Sequence record: MT446423.1
Direction: 5' to 3' (one strand)
From: Escherichia virus TH58
Length of the DNA stretch: 64,000 bases
Shown: positions 3,927 to 7,688 of the stretch, one piece after another
Layout of the letters: every line of letters starts with the position of its first letter
Position numbering within the stretch: the first letter of the stretch is position 1
Translations under genes and position numbers: made by a program
The notes under the pieces: generated by a model
Told to the model about the DNA's origin: nothing
The model's input: only the letters and a program-made list of their open reading frames with translations
Databases searched by the model: none

Positions 3927-4190
3927 ATGAAAACTTTCAACGAATTCATCTCAGAATCGTCTGGTGTGAAAATTAACAAAGCGGTTAATCAGGTTATTGC
4001 TGATATTCTTAATTTGTATAACATTGACTTAACTCCGCATATCACGCTTGGTAACAAACGAAACTTTTTTATATTTGACACATCCGAACTTGATGAAAAC
4101 CAGTTCAATAACATTCAACGTTTTGCGAATGATAAAGGTCTTCGACACGAGCCTGGCGGCTATAAAAAATACGCAATATATTTGAAATAA
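3927..4190 (+). CDS. Internal-protein-like ORF with capsid targeting sequence (IPI position)
   Basis: Starts MKTFNEFISE, matching the T4 IP capsid targeting signature MKTYQEFIAE; sits at the ipI position between 57B and the tRNAs. Confidence 0.55.
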   Translation: MKTFNEFISESSGVKINKAVNQVIADILNLYNIDLTPHITLGNKRNFFIFDTSELDENQFNNIQRFANDKGLRHEPGGYKKYAIYLK

Positions 4191-4192
4191 AG

Positions 4193-4222
4193 GTATACAA
4201 ACCTATAGGGATATGTTATAGT
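4193..4222 (+). promoter_or_regulatory. Early promoter variant (GTATAC -35, TATAGT -10) with flanking inverted repeat
   Basis: Motif ...GGGATATGTTATAGTAGTCCTATC, shared with several other intergenic sites. Confidence 0.45.
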
Positions 4223-4259
4223 AGTCCTATCAAAACAAATGAGTAAATGGAGAAATAAA

Positions 4260-4445
4260 ATGAAACGCGCTGAACTGATTCGTAATGTTGCTGTAGTAAT
4301 TGCTTCAGTAGCTTTTAGTTTTTCGATGTTTGTAGGATTCATTTGTGGACTACTGACAACAACAGAAAATTCTATCTCATTGGTAGTAGCATTTCTAATC
4401 GGCTTAATCGCTATCGTTATGGATAAAATTGCAAAAGGTGAGTAA
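4260..4445 (+). CDS. Small membrane protein
   Basis: ATG 4260 with GGAG RBS; hydrophobic stretch VAVVIASVAFSFSMFVGFICGLL. Confidence 0.45.
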   Translation: MKRAELIRNVAVVIASVAFSFSMFVGFICGLLTTTENSISLVVAFLIGLIAIVMDKIAKGE

Positions 4446-4446
4446 A

Positions 4447-4809
4447 ATGAAATATCATGTATATGCGGATTTTGAAGCAAATCCTTCTAAAGACCCTGAT
4501 TGTCGTTTGATACGCGAACCATTTGATTCAGCAGCTCAAGCATGGGCTTGGATTAAATCTAAATCGCCTGGTTATATGTTCTTTGAAGTAGTCGATGACA
4601 ATGGTACACTGCATCCAGAACCTACAGAAACTATTAATTTCCTTCTGTTTGCTGGTTACGACTGTTATCCTCTTGGTGGTATTGACGACCTTGTTGCTAC
4701 AGGAAAAACCGTTGAGGCTCTTCGCGAAATTTATAAAAACGCAGAAGAAAATTTTGACTGGTATCATATTGTTGATGCTCACACCTTTGAAGTGGTGGAA
4801 CACTCATGA
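4447..4809 (+). CDS. Hypothetical protein
   Basis: ATG 4447 after AAGGTGAG; 120 aa. Confidence 0.55.
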   Translation: MKYHVYADFEANPSKDPDCRLIREPFDSAAQAWAWIKSKSPGYMFFEVVDDNGTLHPEPTETINFLLFAGYDCYPLGGIDDLVATGKTVEALREIYKNAEENFDWYHIVDAHTFEVVEHS

Positions 4810-5096
4810 TTCTTTATGCTAAAGTAAAATCTGTTGAGAATGGATATGAAAGCGATCGACGTGCAGCTAAAGCACTAGTCGATGACTATGGTATTTTGAC
4901 CCACTTTGAGGTTGAAAAGGTTTACGTCGACCGTTCATCTTCACAGGTTAAATTACTTTGGGAAGACCGCAAATTTAATAGTGTGAACTTTGATTTCTTT
5001 ATTGAAACAGAAAAAGGCCCTCTTGAATATGATATTTTCAAGAATCCTTTGAAATTACGTTGCATTGAATATAATTACATTAATATGGTACGGTGA
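4806..5096 (+). CDS. Hypothetical protein
   Basis: Start overlaps upstream stop (ATGA coupling); 96 aa. Confidence 0.5.
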   Translation: MILYAKVKSVENGYESDRRAAKALVDDYGILTHFEVEKVYVDRSSSQVKLLWEDRKFNSVNFDFFIETEKGPLEYDIFKNPLKLRCIEYNYINMVR

Positions 5097-5100
5097 GTAA

Positions 5101-5616
5101 ATGAATATTTGTTTAGGCAGTACAATTCCTAAAGGTTACGTAATTGATGTCACTACTTGGGAAAATGATGGCGACAATTATAAAACCAAAACATTATTTG
5201 GTGTAGAAGAGCATGAGCTCCAACAGTTTAAATATCTCTTGAAGAAATTTAAGAGTCGCCATTCTAGCACTAAAGCTGAACGTTACTGTGGTAATACACC
5301 ATTCAGTGATTGCTCGCTTTTAATCTATGAATACTTGGTTGAAGGACTGTTCTCAGACCAGCTTTATCCAGAATTCATTAAAAAGGTCTTTGATATTGAA
5401 GTCGACCTCGGTAATAAATCTGAAGAAGACGAATCACGTGTATTTGACCTGTTCCGTGAGAATGGATATTTGGTATCAGAAGGTCTCACTGATATTCTTG
5501 GCCATGCTTCTGAATATTATGATTATGATTTCTTGCGTGTAGTTGAACGTGTTGAATTCGCTTATATTGAAGAAGAAATTGTTTTGCCGACTGTTAAAAT
5601 GATTGATTTGCTTTAA
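5101..5616 (+). CDS. Hypothetical acidic protein
   Basis: 171 aa ORF in the operon frame series. Confidence 0.55.
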   Translation: MNICLGSTIPKGYVIDVTTWENDGDNYKTKTLFGVEEHELQQFKYLLKKFKSRHSSTKAERYCGNTPFSDCSLLIYEYLVEGLFSDQLYPEFIKKVFDIEVDLGNKSEEDESRVFDLFRENGYLVSEGLTDILGHASEYYDYDFLRVVERVEFAYIEEEIVLPTVKMIDLL

Positions 5617-5695
5617 GAATTATGTGTTATTATTAATTCATACCCTCTATTACCAAAGGTGCTCTAAAGTGCCTTTCATAATAGAAAGTTATTTA

Positions 5696-5769
5696 GGCCC
5701 TGTAGCTCAATGGTTAGCAGCAGTCCCCTCATAAGGGAAAGGTTACCAGTTCGAATCTGGTCTGGGCCA
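5696..5769 (+). tRNA. tRNA with CAU anticodon (Met or Ile-type)
   Basis: Hand-folded cloverleaf: acceptor GGCCCTG/CTGGGCC (one T-T mismatch), T-arm ACCAG-TTCGAATC-TGGT, anticodon loop CTCATAA; no encoded CCA. Confidence 0.65.
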
Positions 5770-5775
5770 TATATT

Positions 5776-5852
<77 letters not shown>

Positions 5853-5870
5853 ACTTCAAATGAGGAAAAT

Positions 5871-6215
5871 ATGAAAGGCAATATTTATTTGGTAGTTCAT
5901 GATTTAACGTTTTATTTTAACGAACAGGATACAGTTATTTCCGACCGGTTGATTAATTCGTTATATCAACACGCTGATTACGTTTATTTTAAAAATGAAT
6001 TCGGACATTGGAAGTTTCTTAAAAACCGTTCCGGGTTAACTAGTTTTGAATACTTTGACCGTAAAGACCTTTTAAACGAAATCCCATTGCAACATCGGTT
6101 CCAGAAACGCGAATCATTATATTATTGCCGTCATATACCAAACGCAGAATGTGCTTATGAAGCGATTAATCTATGGCGTCGGCGTCGAGAACAAATTGAT
6201 GATATGCCAAAATAA
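5871..6215 (+). CDS. Hypothetical protein
   Basis: ATG 5871 with GAGGA RBS; the upstream part of track ORF 5823..6215 overlaps tRNA-Arg and is discounted. Confidence 0.5.
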   Translation: MKGNIYLVVHDLTFYFNEQDTVISDRLINSLYQHADYVYFKNEFGHWKFLKNRSGLTSFEYFDRKDLLNEIPLQHRFQKRESLYYCRHIPNAECAYEAINLWRRRREQIDDMPK

Positions 6216-6522
6216 GAAACCGGGTCGCTACCGGTAAGTCGTCGGACTGATGTTCCCTGGAGTATAGTTCCTCCCACAGTTTTACTGTGTTCTGGTTCTT
6301 TACTATCACAGCTGAAACGGCGCACAGAATTATCGATTCGAGGAAATATCTTTGCCGTAAGCCGAGTAGCGTTTTTGACGGAACGTTCGGATATGGTCGA
6401 GATATGGCCTTTTAAAAATATTGAGTAGCGTCAACTGCTTAATAACCGGGTTCGAATCCCGGCGTTTCGTACAAACACTTGCCTTAGCAGGTGGAACCCC
6501 GACAAGGTTGCCGCAAGGCATA
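6216..6522 (+). ncRNA. Candidate structured small RNA region (positional analog of T4 tRNA-associated stable RNAs)
   Basis: About 300 nt with no credible + strand ORF, GC-richer than surroundings, tRNA-like T-arm CCGGG-TTCGAAT-CCCGG at 6446-6462, ends at a strong terminator. Confidence 0.3.
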
Positions 6523-6554
6523 GCCCCTTCCGAAAGGTTGGGGCTTTTTTTTTT
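6523..6554 (+). terminator. Rho-independent terminator
   Basis: GCCCCTTCCGAAAGGTTGGGGC hairpin followed by T10. Confidence 0.8.
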
Positions 6555-6596
6555 GGCATAATAAATAGATAAGTTAATTAACTTAGGAAAAGCAAC

Positions 6597-7061
6597 ATGA
6601 AATCATACGCTGAATTTTTGACTGAACAATCTAGTTCAGATGTAAAAGCCGCTGCGATTGCAGCAATTCGAGCAGGTAAATATTCTTACAAAGACGCCTC
6701 TGATGAAGAACGTTTCCGTTTTATTAGAGATTTTAAAGCCGAAGGTTTTACTAATGCTAATACTGTTAGCCGAGTTTTTAAAAGCCTAGCTGCATCAGGT
6801 GAATTGTTCCAGAAAGCTACAGGTAAAGCACCTGCGCCAAAAGCGGACCCTAAAGCCGCTCAAGAAAAAAATATCGCCAAAGGAATTATTTCTAAGTATG
6901 AAGCAATTCTTAAAGAGCTTTTAGTAATCAAATCAGAAGGCCAGAAACTGGCACGAGCACATAGCTTCAAAGATAATCCTCACGCTCATAGCCTTGAGTA
7001 TGTTGAAGATATCCAAAAACTTATTAAAGACCGTATCTGGTCTGCTAAACAAATTAAATAA
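6597..7061 (+). CDS. Internal-protein-like ORF with capsid targeting sequence
   Basis: Starts MKSYAEFLTE (CTS-like); 154 aa; terminator directly downstream. Confidence 0.5.
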   Translation: MKSYAEFLTEQSSSDVKAAAIAAIRAGKYSYKDASDEERFRFIRDFKAEGFTNANTVSRVFKSLAASGELFQKATGKAPAPKADPKAAQEKNIAKGIISKYEAILKELLVIKSEGQKLARAHSFKDNPHAHSLEYVEDIQKLIKDRIWSAKQIK

Positions 7062-7067
7062 TAGAAT

Positions 7068-7095
7068 GCCCCTTCCTTACGGTTGGGGCTTTTTG
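7068..7095 (+). terminator. Rho-independent terminator
   Basis: GCCCCTTCCTTACGGTTGGGGC hairpin plus T5. Confidence 0.7.
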
Positions 7096-7184
7096 GTATC
7101 TAGGGCATAAAAATATTTCATAAAGATGTTTACTTCTTCTAAGGACATGATACTATAGACTTATCAACCACATAGGAAAATGTT

Positions 7185-7688
7185 ATGAGTCTTTATACTG
7201 AACTGAATAAAAAATCTGAAGAATCTGCTGAAACTATTTTTAAAAACGTGCAAAAACGTATTTTAGAAAAGATGTATAACGCTGCATCTAAAGGTGAAAA
7301 ATCTTGCCGGTTCCCGATGAGGTGTTCCTCCGATTTATGCGCAAATACTATTGAATGGCTGGAAAGTGAAGGTCTTACGGTAGAGAAAAACCCGGCGACT
7401 TCTATTGACAGCGAATCATATATTAGTATTTCTTGGGATAAATCAAGGGTAGAAGAGAAAGATGGTGATTGGGTTGTAGATGTTAAAACTTCTGATGGTG
7501 GACGTTCTGTTGAAGTTTCAGCTGTAGTTAAAGGTACCCACGAACAAAGGACTTGGGGTTGGGGTGGTGAAGAAAAAGAAATTGTTCTTAGTGTGATTGC
7601 CAGGTCAACTAGTAATAAAATTGCACAAAGCATCATTGACGCTGCAATTGCTGAAGCAGAAAAAATTTGCAAAATTAAAAATAAATGA
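7185..7688 (+). CDS. Hypothetical protein
   Basis: 167 aa, RBS AGGAAAA; bracketed by a terminator upstream and a promoter downstream. Confidence 0.55.
   Translation: MSLYTELNKKSEESAETIFKNVQKRILEKMYNAASKGEKSCRFPMRCSSDLCANTIEWLESEGLTVEKNPATSIDSESYISISWDKSRVEEKDGDWVVDVKTSDGGRSVEVSAVVKGTHEQRTWGWGGEEKEIVLSVIARSTSNKIAQSIIDAAIAEAEKICKIKNK

What the first reader, a model, noticed from the sequence alone, without database searches (positions are those of the whole stretch)
6216..6554. Roughly 340-nt non-coding stretch after the tRNAs with a tRNA-like T-arm and a strong terminator
No credible ORF on the + strand, locally GC-rich, contains CCGGG-TTCGAAT-CCCGG (a T-arm consensus) and potential acceptor pairing, but no acceptable anticodon arm. 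T4 encodes small stable RNAs of unknown function next to its tRNA genes; this may be an analog or a decayed tRNA.
Basis: partly seen in the sequence, partly recalled or inferred. Interest (0 to 1): 0.5.

Follow-up and report, generated by a model that had tools for sequence, protein, structure and literature searches.

The report
T4-type stable RNAs rnaD and rnaC
This stretch holds the two small stable RNAs (rnaD and rnaC) that T4-like phages have long been known to encode beside their tRNA genes, plus the operon's terminator; the genes are ordinary for such a phage, their function is still unknown, and comparison of relatives gives a well-supported tRNA-like fold for rnaC.

Summary
The interval is non-coding and GC-rich (0.48 against about 0.35). 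It has an exact T-arm at 6446-6462 and ends in a strong terminator.

It is three adjacent things, not one:
- rnaD (species 2 RNA), about 6212-6326.
- rnaC (species 1 RNA), 6333-6471.
- A conserved 3' trailer with an intrinsic terminator, 6472-6554.

rnaC is 137/139 identical to the annotated T4-type rnaC. The window is a Mosigvirus-type T4-like phage. ARAGORN calls no tRNA or tmRNA here, and no Rfam family matches.

Twenty-eight distinct rnaC homologues support a four-way junction. It has an acceptor-like stem stacked on the T-arm, a long irregular arm and a 10-bp hairpin. The two 6-nt loops, UUGACG and CGUCAA, are exact complements and changed together once, which points to a kissing contact.

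rnaC always sits inside tRNA arrays, so it is probably cut out by the tRNA-processing enzymes. rnaD is a rod-like hairpin with a conserved purine-rich internal loop. rnaD-like RNAs also occur in tRNA arrays of unrelated large phages.

The biological function remains unknown. A role as a tRNA mimic or protein-binding RNA is only an inference. The element is already known, and interest is modest.

The parts
6212..6326 (+). rnaD (species 2 RNA) homologue, about 115 nt. Its 5' end overlaps the TAA stop (6213-6215) of the upstream ORF.
   Evidence: Aligns to positions 1-117 of the 118-nt rnaD annotated in RB59. The core structure is counted on A6.
6219..6235 (+). rnaD 5' hairpin: ACCGG / loop GUCGCUA / CCGGU.
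   Evidence: Predicted by RNAalifold. The stem becomes CAGGG/CCCUG in a Phapecoctavirus and AUAGGG/CCCUAU in PM2.
6238..6254 (+). rnaD 5' strands: closing stem P2 (GUCGUCG), conserved internal loop (GACUGA) and P3 (UGUU).
   Evidence: They pair with 6310-6325. On A6, 94.2% of cells are paired and 5 pairs have compensatory change.
6255..6309 (+). rnaD distal arm, the 'type B' version that contains hairpin CACAG-UUUUA-CUGUG.
   Evidence: The arm differs from T4 (four arm types). It matches T2 and the rnaD-like RNAs of Phapecoctavirus and Certrevirus.
6310..6325 (+). rnaD 3' strands: P3 (AGCU), loop GAAA, and P2 (CGGCG-C-AC) with an invariant bulged C.
6333..6471 (+). rnaC (species 1 RNA) homologue, 139 nt, a tRNA-like four-way junction.
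   Evidence: 137/139 identical to RB59 rnaC. Covariance model R1 scores it 157 bits. The structure is counted.
6334..6340 (+). rnaC acceptor-like stem, 5' strand CGAUUCG.
   Evidence: Pairs with 6463-6469. A4-U135 alternates with G-C (14 against 13 sequences). In PM2, C-G becomes A-U and both U.U become U-A.
6341..6410 (+). rnaC helix 2 (AGG/CCU) carrying the long irregular arm (helices 3-6, 6346-6405).
   Evidence: In one search, helices 3-6 are 96-100% paired, with 11 of 14 pairs carrying compensatory changes. Helix 2 changes A-U to U-A in PM2.
6375..6380 (+). rnaC apical loop 1, UUGACG.
   Evidence: It is the exact reverse complement of loop 2. It is fully complementary in 27 of 28 homologues, and A-U becomes G-C in the Klebsiella-phage lineage.
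6419..6444 (+). rnaC 10-bp hairpin (helix 8) with loop 2, CGUCAA (6429-6434).
   Evidence: 8 of 9 counted pairs have compensatory changes and 98% of cells are paired.
6446..6462 (+). rnaC T-arm CCGGG-UUCGAAU-CCCGG.
   Evidence: Read directly from the sequence. The middle pair covaries between U-A and G-C.
6463..6471 (+). rnaC acceptor-like stem 3' strand CGUUUCG plus a UA tail. No CCA is encoded.
   Evidence: The Klebsiella-phage homologues encode UCCA here.
6472..6521 (+). Conserved trailer with three small hairpins.
   Evidence: Fold. Nearly invariant in 20 true trailer variants, and kept even where rnaC or both RNAs are deleted. The third hairpin changes GCC/GGC to ACC/GGU in Dhakavirus.
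6522..6554 (+). Intrinsic terminator: a 24-nt hairpin with a GAAA loop, followed by a run of nine T.
   Evidence: -15.5 kcal/mol. The stem has a compensatory C-G to G-C change in Dhakavirus.

Best explanation
The interval is the distal end of the phage tRNA operon. It holds two small stable non-coding RNAs, rnaD (species 2) and rnaC (species 1), then a structured trailer and a Rho-independent terminator that ends the transcript.

Shown here:
- rnaC is a tRNA-like four-way junction.
- A 7-bp acceptor-like stem continues without a linker into a canonical T-arm. Together they form the acceptor/T minihelix of a tRNA.
- There are no D and anticodon arms. In their place are a long irregular arm of about 26 bp and a 10-bp hairpin.
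- The two 6-nt loops of that arm and that hairpin are exact complements.

Inferred:
- The minihelix makes rnaC a substrate for the host enzymes that mature tRNAs: RNase P at the 5' end and exonucleolytic trimming at the 3' end. rnaC would then be cut out of the polycistronic tRNA transcript and stabilised, like a natural 'tRNA scaffold'.
- The same cuts would free rnaD, whose 3' end is protected by its closing stem.
- The loop-loop pairing locks the body of rnaC into two side-by-side helical stacks. The upward stack, helices 2-5, is about 20 bp. The downward stack, helix 6 plus the kiss plus helix 8, is about 22 bp.
- rnaC cannot decode, because it has no anticodon arm, and in most lineages no CCA is encoded.

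The most likely role, at about 0.2-0.3 confidence, is an abundant tRNA-shaped RNA that binds or titrates a tRNA-recognising or double-strand-RNA-recognising protein during infection. rnaD is a separate rod-like RNA. Its conserved purine-rich internal loop is the probable binding site.
For: Identity:
- 816 phage records match the interval.
- RB59 and ATK47 annotate rnaD and rnaC at the aligned positions.

Structure of rnaC, on 28 distinct sequences:
- 94.4% of cells are paired, and 24 of 44 pairs have compensatory changes.
- 0 of 500 shuffles reach the observed values, and the slid controls pair at 35-51%.
- The acceptor stem is a perfect Watson-Crick helix in PM2.

Kissing loops:
- Complementarity stops exactly at the loop ends.
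- It is kept in 27 of 28 sequences, with one double change, UUGGCG/CGCCAA, in three sequences of one lineage.
- Loop-loop complementarity of 6 nt or more appears in 25 of 2000 shuffled sequences.
- Length stays at 138-142 nt although the long arm diverges in sequence.

Processing context:
- In Karamvirus, Gelderlandvirus and phage Ursula, rnaC lies between tRNA-Trp and tRNA-Gly. In the Karamvirus and Gelderlandvirus examples the spacers are 5-11 nt.
- In PM2 it lies just before tRNA-Trp.

Non-coding: no frame is open across the homologues.

Expression: in T4, RNAC and RNAD were detected as late RNAs by RNA-seq and validated by a Northern blot assay for which only an RNAC probe is described (PMC9697503). 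Their roles are stated to be unknown (PMC3014915).

Terminator.
Against: - No experiment was done on this phage. The transcript ends are carried over from the T4 annotation.
- The annotated 5' end, U1, lies one nucleotide outside the 7-bp stem. An RNase P cut is therefore not exactly predicted.
- The acceptor stem has a tandem U.U mismatch in 27 of 28 sequences.
- The kissing contact rests on a single evolutionary event. In PM2 it is reduced to GACG/CGUC plus a G.U.
- The same data fit an intermolecular (dimer) contact equally well.
- Nothing here bears directly on the biological role. rnaC and rnaD are each missing from some related phages, so neither is essential.
Confidence: 0.8

Rival explanations
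1. A decayed tRNA pseudogene. The T-arm and acceptor remnant would be relics of a dead tRNA gene, and the rest would be drifting spacer.
For: Only the T-arm resembles a tRNA. ARAGORN and Rfam call no tRNA here. The element is lost in some lineages.
Against: Helices outside the T-arm are maintained by compensatory changes across nine or more genera. Length is constant. The RNA accumulates as a stable species in T4 (PMC9697503). It shows no similarity to co-resident tRNAs beyond the T-loop.
Confidence: 0.03
2. rnaC is a functional, chargeable tRNA-like molecule: an unusual tRNA with a long variable arm, or a tmRNA-like rescuer. It would use the alternative acceptor CGGAACG (6379-6385) pairing with CGUUUCG.
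For: In phage PG7, both ARAGORN and GenBank call a 95-nt tRNA-Met(CAU) inside the rnaC homologue, using exactly this alternative stem. The window gives a weak tRNA-Sec match of 16.6 bits. The Klebsiella-phage homologues encode CCA after the stem.
Against: The alternative stem has no covariation support. It is 85.7% paired, every one of 500 shuffles does as well, and it is broken in the divergent lineages. It would destroy helix 6 and loop 1, which do covary. No anticodon stem can be drawn. ARAGORN finds no tmRNA. Most lineages encode UACA, not NCCA.
Confidence: 0.04
3. The interval encodes small proteins. Several GenBank records annotate hypothetical proteins over it.
For: ORFs of 42-63 aa exist on both strands. 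Many records list 'hypothetical protein' under the match.
Against: No frame is stop-free across the homologues. The window's 63-aa minus-strand ORF is interrupted in T4. The substitutions follow base-pairing, not codon positions.
Confidence: 0.02
4. rnaC and/or rnaD act as trans-acting base-pairing regulators of host or phage mRNAs through their conserved single-stranded segments. The loop complementarity would then reflect a shared target, or dimerisation, rather than an internal fold.
For: The invariant loop sequences are more conserved than a kissing contact alone requires. One evolution study reports a convergent SNP in rnaD during host adaptation (PMC12685909). The rnaD hairpin loop CGCUAC is complementary to GUAGCG, which occurs twice in rnaC.
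Against: No target was searched for or found. The interval has no match in 5,426 E. coli genomes at blastn level. rnaC and rnaD occur independently of each other in different phages. Most conserved nucleotides lie in helices.
Confidence: 0.1
5. The RNAs have no role of their own. They would be by-products of structured spacers that only direct processing, stability or termination of the tRNA operon transcript.
For: They lie at the end of the operon. The trailer and terminator are kept even where the RNAs are deleted. Both RNAs are dispensable in some phages.
Against: In other genera rnaC sits in the middle of tRNA arrays, not at the end. Its complex fold is conserved far beyond what a processing signal needs. 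rnaD-like RNAs have spread to unrelated phage families.
Confidence: 0.1

Closest known systems
Bacteriophage T4 rnaC (species 1 RNA) and rnaD (species 2 RNA)
   Same: Orthologous sequence and the same order, rnaD then rnaC then terminator, at the end of the tRNA cluster. rnaC is 137/139 identical. The rnaD 5' part is near-identical (one mismatch in about 46 nt) and the 3' 22 nt has two mismatches.
   Different: The rnaD distal arm is the T2-type version, not the T4 version. A 114-codon ORF separates tRNA-Arg from rnaD here, whereas in T4 they abut. Only two tRNA genes are called in the whole window.
Canonical tRNA
   Same: A T-arm with a UUCGAAU loop stacked directly on a 7-bp terminal stem; a four-way junction; a position inside tRNA arrays with tRNA-like spacers.
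   Different: No D-arm, no 5-bp anticodon stem with a 7-nt loop, tandem U.U in the acceptor stem, no encoded CCA in most lineages, and 139 nt long. The tRNA detectors reject it.
tRNA-like domains used as processing or stability handles: the tmRNA tRNA-like domain, the MALAT1 mascRNA, and engineered 'tRNA scaffolds' (from my own knowledge)
   Same: An acceptor/T minihelix attached to a non-tRNA body. The host tRNA-maturation enzymes would be expected to define the ends.
   Different: No tag-peptide ORF and no pseudoknot ring, so it is not a tmRNA. The analogy concerns how it works and was not tested here.
Loop-loop 'kissing' complexes: ColE1 RNA I/RNA II, HIV-1 TAR/TAR* and DIS (from my own knowledge)
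   Same: Two hairpin loops of 6 nt that are fully complementary to each other.
   Different: Here both loops lie in one 139-nt molecule. Whether the contact is within one molecule or between two is not known.
Kink-turn / box C-D type internal loops (compared with rnaD)
   Same: rnaD has CUGAUG on one strand and CUGA on the other, flanked by helices. Tandem G.A pairs are possible, and columns 12/46 of A6 swap G/A for A/G.
   Different: Two extra purines separate the GA from the closing stem, so it does not fit the standard kink-turn layout. No Rfam C/D model matches rnaD. The comparison is inconclusive.

Membership tests
T4 rnaC (species 1 RNA) | Sequence homology over the full length to the annotated T4-type rnaC | tested here: met
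   137/139 identical to RB59 rnaC. R1 scores it 157 bits, against 79-159 for other members and 22 or less for non-members.
T4 rnaC (species 1 RNA) | Location in the phage tRNA cluster, downstream of rnaD and upstream of the operon terminator | tested here: met
T4 rnaC (species 1 RNA) | Accumulates as a discrete stable RNA of about 140 nt in infected cells | not testable with these tools
   Shown for T4 by Northern blot (PMC9697503), not for this phage.
T4 rnaD (species 2 RNA) | Sequence homology to the annotated T4/T2 rnaD, placed directly upstream of rnaC | tested here: met
   Aligns to 1-117 of 118 nt with a diverged central arm. The arm matches the T2L record annotated 'rnaD: species II RNA' (H270).
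Canonical tRNA | Cloverleaf with D-arm, anticodon arm (5 bp plus 7-nt loop), T-arm and 7-bp acceptor stem, recognised by tRNA detectors | tested here: not met
   ARAGORN finds nothing in 6212-6554. The Rfam tRNA model does not match; the best clan hit is tRNA-Sec at 16.6 bits against 47. Only the T-arm and an acceptor-like stem are present.
tmRNA | tRNA-like domain plus tag-peptide reading frame and pseudoknots | tested here: not met
   ARAGORN finds no tmRNA and Rfam gives no hit. At 139 nt it is too short.
Rho-independent terminator | GC-rich hairpin immediately followed by a U tract, at the end of a transcription unit | tested here: met
   Hairpin 6522-6545, -15.5 kcal/mol, followed by nine T. 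The next ORF starts at 6597. The stem shows a compensatory change in Dhakavirus.
Y RNA-like (YrlA) tRNA mimics | Terminal Ro-binding stem formed by the 5' and 3' ends, plus an internal tRNA-like module | tested here: not met
   The only YrlA hit is 17.7 bits against 69, and it lies over the true tRNAs, not this interval. In rnaC the two ends form the acceptor stem itself.
Kink-turn / box C-D motif (rnaD internal loop) | Three-nucleotide bulge followed by tandem sheared G.A pairs, next to a Watson-Crick stem | tested here: inconclusive
   GA occurs on both strands and P3 covaries. Two extra purines break the standard register. No three-dimensional test or protein test was possible.

The most novel reading that the evidence does not exclude
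rnaC is a distinct class of phage RNA. A tRNA acceptor/T minihelix would serve as a processing and stability handle for a body locked by a conserved 6-bp kissing contact. The whole would act as a molecular mimic or decoy that titrates a host tRNA-recognising factor during infection, such as a defence nuclease, a tRNA-processing or modification enzyme, or RNase III. rnaD would be a second, independently mobile protein-binding RNA module that moves between the tRNA arrays of unrelated phage families.
Probability: 0.15. Interest if true: 0.7.

Novelty: already known. Interest (0 to 1): 0.33.

Why it matters
rnaC and rnaD have been known as abundant T4 RNAs since the 1970s. Reviews still list their roles as unknown (PMC3014915, PMC9697503), and Rfam has no family for either.

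Finding them in this window is not news. The comparative results do make the old question easier to test:
- There is now a covariation-backed fold for rnaC, with a specific and mutable loop-loop contact.
- There is a defined conserved internal loop in rnaD.
- Natural deletion variants show where each module begins and ends.
- rnaD-like RNAs also sit in tRNA arrays of Phapecoctavirus and Certrevirus phages.

The results also expose recurring annotation errors over this locus, where it is called a 'hypothetical protein' or, in PG7, a 95-nt 'tRNA-Met'.

Tried and rejected
1. My first acceptor guess, CGGAACG (6379-6385) with CGUUUCG. It looks good in the T4 group and is perfect in PG7, where ARAGORN calls a tRNA-Met. 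It has no covariation support and is broken in the divergent lineages.
2. tmRNA, a group I intron, or any Rfam family. Nothing reaches threshold. The space between the acceptor strands is too short for an intron.
3. A coding reading. No conserved frame exists.
4. A host or prophage origin. There is no match in 5,426 E. coli genomes. The 50 pattern hits in bacterial and archaeal genomes all score 22 bits or less with the rnaC model and are ordinary tRNA T-arms.
5. Recent descent from a neighbouring tRNA. Local alignments to 13 phage tRNAs match only the T-loop.
6. Wider homologue hunts:
   - The loose pattern GGTTCGAGGA...GGCCTT returned mostly noise.
   - The metagenome scan returned only known lineages.
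   - One viral hit, L163, was a real tRNA.
7. A hammerhead reading of rnaD (CUGAUG...GAAA). It lacks the third stem and the core A9.
8. T4 late-promoter motif TATAAATA. None occurs on the + strand in 4000-7500, so the promoter was not located.
9. Neighbouring ORFs. They have no Pfam hits and only unknown-function PHROGs.
10. Older primary papers on species 1 RNA are not in the library. From memory, and unverified here, Paddock, Abelson and colleagues sequenced species I RNA in the 1970s and showed that RNase III cleaves it in vitro. That would fit the long helical arm.

Full report
**What is there**

The window is a T4-like phage of the Mosigvirus type. The 340-nt interval matches 816 phage records, and vB_EcoM-RPN187 is 100% identical over 335 nt.

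In phage RB59, which belongs to the T4 species, the aligned DNA is annotated tRNA-Arg, then rnaD ('species II RNA', 118 nt), then rnaC (139 nt). ATK47 also annotates rnaC as 'small stable RNA; species 1 RNA'.

Mapping onto the window gives four segments:
- rnaD at about 6212-6326.
- A 6-nt spacer.
- rnaC at 6333-6471, 137/139 identical to RB59.
- An 83-nt trailer that ends in a hairpin of -15.5 kcal/mol followed by nine T.

So the finding covers two RNA genes and a terminator, not one RNA.

**Check of the observation**

- The T-arm CCGGG-TTCGAAT-CCCGG is at 6446-6462.
- GC is 0.476 against about 0.35 around it.
- Only mechanical ORFs are present, and none is conserved.
- ARAGORN finds only tRNA-Met(CAU) and tRNA-Arg(UCU) upstream.
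- Rfam finds nothing at gathering thresholds and only noise at E up to 10.
- The interval does not directly follow the tRNAs. An ORF of unknown function (5871-6215, phrog_3355) lies between, and its stop codon overlaps the rnaD 5' end.

**Structure of rnaC**

I collected homologues from GenBank phages, IMG/VR and metagenomes. They come from these genera and phages:
- Tequatrovirus, Mosigvirus and Gaprivervirus.
- Karamvirus, Kanagawavirus and Moonvirus.
- Gelderlandvirus, a Klebsiella-phage lineage and Mosugukvirus (PM2).
- Phages EcS1 and Ursula.

On 28 distinct sequences, 94.4% of cells are paired and 24 of 44 pairs show compensatory changes. None of 500 shuffles reaches the observed values, and slid controls pair at only 35-51%.

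The fold is a four-way junction:
- **Acceptor-like stem.** Seven base pairs, nt 2-8 with 131-137.
  - It carries a tandem U.U in 27 of 28 sequences.
  - In PM2 the stem is fully Watson-Crick and carries two further compensatory changes.
- **T-arm.** The stem runs without a linker into the T-arm (nt 114-130).
- **Long arm.** On the 5' side the stem runs directly into helix 2 (AGG/CCU), which carries a long irregular arm (nt 14-73).
- **Hairpin.** An A/U-rich linker of about 8 nt leads to a 10-bp hairpin (nt 87-112), one nucleotide before the T-arm.

The apical loop of the long arm, UUGACG, and the loop of the 10-bp hairpin, CGUCAA, are exact reverse complements.
- The complementarity stops at the loop boundaries.
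- It holds in 27 of 28 sequences.
- In the Klebsiella-phage lineage both loops changed together, to UUGGCG/CGCCAA.
- PM2 keeps only GACG/CGUC plus a G.U.
- Loop-loop complementarity of this length arises in 25 of 2000 shuffled sequences.

I read this as a kissing contact. The helix lengths allow it within one molecule: about 20 bp in one stack and about 22 bp in the other. That is an inference, and a dimer contact is not excluded.

**Why I think rnaC is processed like a tRNA**

This is inferred, not shown.
- In Karamvirus, Gelderlandvirus and phage Ursula, rnaC lies between tRNA-Trp and tRNA-Gly. In the Karamvirus and Gelderlandvirus examples the spacers are 5-11 nt.
- In PM2 it lies just before tRNA-Trp.
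- An acceptor/T minihelix is the minimal RNase P substrate. This is established knowledge of RNase P and was not tested here.
- In the window the same cut would release the 3' side of rnaD.

**rnaD**

The consensus has four parts:
- A 5' hairpin whose stem covaries.
- A closing stem, GUCGUCG/CGGCG-C-AC, with an invariant bulged C that includes the 3' end.
- A conserved asymmetric purine-rich loop (GACUGA / GAAA).
- A short helix P3 that covaries, followed by a distal arm that comes in at least four unrelated versions.

The window has the T2-type arm.

The same core occurs between tRNA genes in Phapecoctavirus and Certrevirus phages, which are not T4-like, with a large insertion in the first hairpin. 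On a composite core alignment of 11 sequences, 94.2% of cells are paired and 5 pairs have compensatory changes.

The loop resembles a box C/D or kink-turn motif but does not fit the standard register.

**Dispensability**

- Dhakavirus-type phages keep rnaD and the trailer but lack rnaC, with a clean junction.
- Karamvirus and others keep rnaC without an adjacent rnaD.
- AV114 lacks both, through a deletion that joined a tRNA to the rnaC T-loop.

The two RNAs are therefore independent accessory modules.

**Function**

[quoted passage not shown] One evolution study reports a convergent SNP in rnaD during adaptation to a semi-permissive host (PMC12685909).

I found no cellular homologue. My best guess is a tRNA-shaped protein-binding RNA or decoy, and I hold it at low confidence.

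**Comparison and verdict**

The element is a member of the known rnaC and rnaD gene families, by sequence, synteny and structure. It is not a tRNA, tmRNA, Y-RNA-like RNA or any Rfam family.

The element is already known. What this analysis adds is the covariation-supported fold, the candidate kissing contact, and the wider distribution of rnaD-like RNAs.

Noticed in passing
L003 (phage AV114) 1951-2023: The annotated 'tRNA-Asn' is a chimera. The 5' part of a GTT-anticodon tRNA is joined, inside the shared T-loop GGTTCGAATCC, to the 3' T-stem, acceptor strand and trailer of rnaC. tRNA-Arg, rnaD and most of rnaC are deleted. Its acceptor stem cannot pair, so it is probably a dead tRNA.
   Followed up: partly
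L008 (IME08) about 1497-1700; also L031, L034, L035, L036, L039: In Dhakavirus-type phages rnaD is joined directly to the trailer (…GGCGCACCGAA|CACUUGCC…). The whole rnaC cassette is absent with a clean boundary, like gain or loss of a tRNA gene.
   Followed up: partly
L009 1497-1611; L174 1128-1292; L176, L177, L178 about 396-570: rnaD-like RNAs sit between tRNA genes in Phapecoctavirus and Certrevirus phages, which are not T4-like. They share the closing stem, the purine-rich loop and, in part, the window's 'type B' arm. The Certrevirus versions have an insertion of about 55 nt in hairpin 1. This suggests horizontal movement of the module between tRNA arrays.
   Followed up: partly
L229 (phage PG7) 236-330: Both GenBank and ARAGORN call a 95-nt 'tRNA-Met(CAU)' that is really the 3' two-thirds of the rnaC homologue. 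The call uses an alternative stem that is perfect in PG7 but has no covariation support. Many other records annotate 'hypothetical protein' over rnaC or rnaD.
   Followed up: yes
window 5871-6215: A 114-codon ORF (phrog_3355, unknown function, RB69ORF150c-like) lies between tRNA-Arg and rnaD. In T4 and RPN187 those two abut. Its stop codon overlaps the rnaD 5' end, and the CCAAA motif before rnaD is retained.
   Followed up: partly
window 6226-6231 against 6366-6371 and 6425-6430: The rnaD hairpin loop CGCUAC is complementary to GUAGCG, which occurs twice in rnaC as part of a 9-nt direct repeat GAGUAGCGU. This could be chance, since the two RNAs occur independently in other phages.
   Followed up: no
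window 6472-6521: The trailer between rnaC and the terminator is almost invariant across 20 true trailer variants. It is retained even where rnaC or both RNAs are deleted, and its third hairpin shows a compensatory change in Dhakavirus. It may be a processing or stability element, or a further small RNA.
   Followed up: partly
window 5696-5769: The tRNA called Met(CAU) is annotated tRNA-Ile in some close relatives (H19 and H25), and as Ile2(CAT) for a CAU tRNA in phage Ursula. It is probably the lysidine-modified tRNA-Ile2 known from T4 (from my own knowledge).
   Followed up: no
L175 (phage PM2) about 1195-1480: The PM2 rnaD-like region starts with the conserved hairpin and AAGUCGUCC. It is then interrupted by a long insertion that contains its own T-arm-like GGAGTTCGAATCTCC. 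The 3' closing strand was not identified.
   Followed up: no
window 6338-6339/6465-6466, 6528-6529/6538-6539, and the rnaD arm 6266-6271/6293-6298: Tandem U.U mismatches flanked by G-C pairs recur in three helices of this interval: the rnaC acceptor stem, the terminator stem and the rnaD arm. In relatives the terminator copy varies (GA or AG opposite UU), so this may be coincidence.
   Followed up: no
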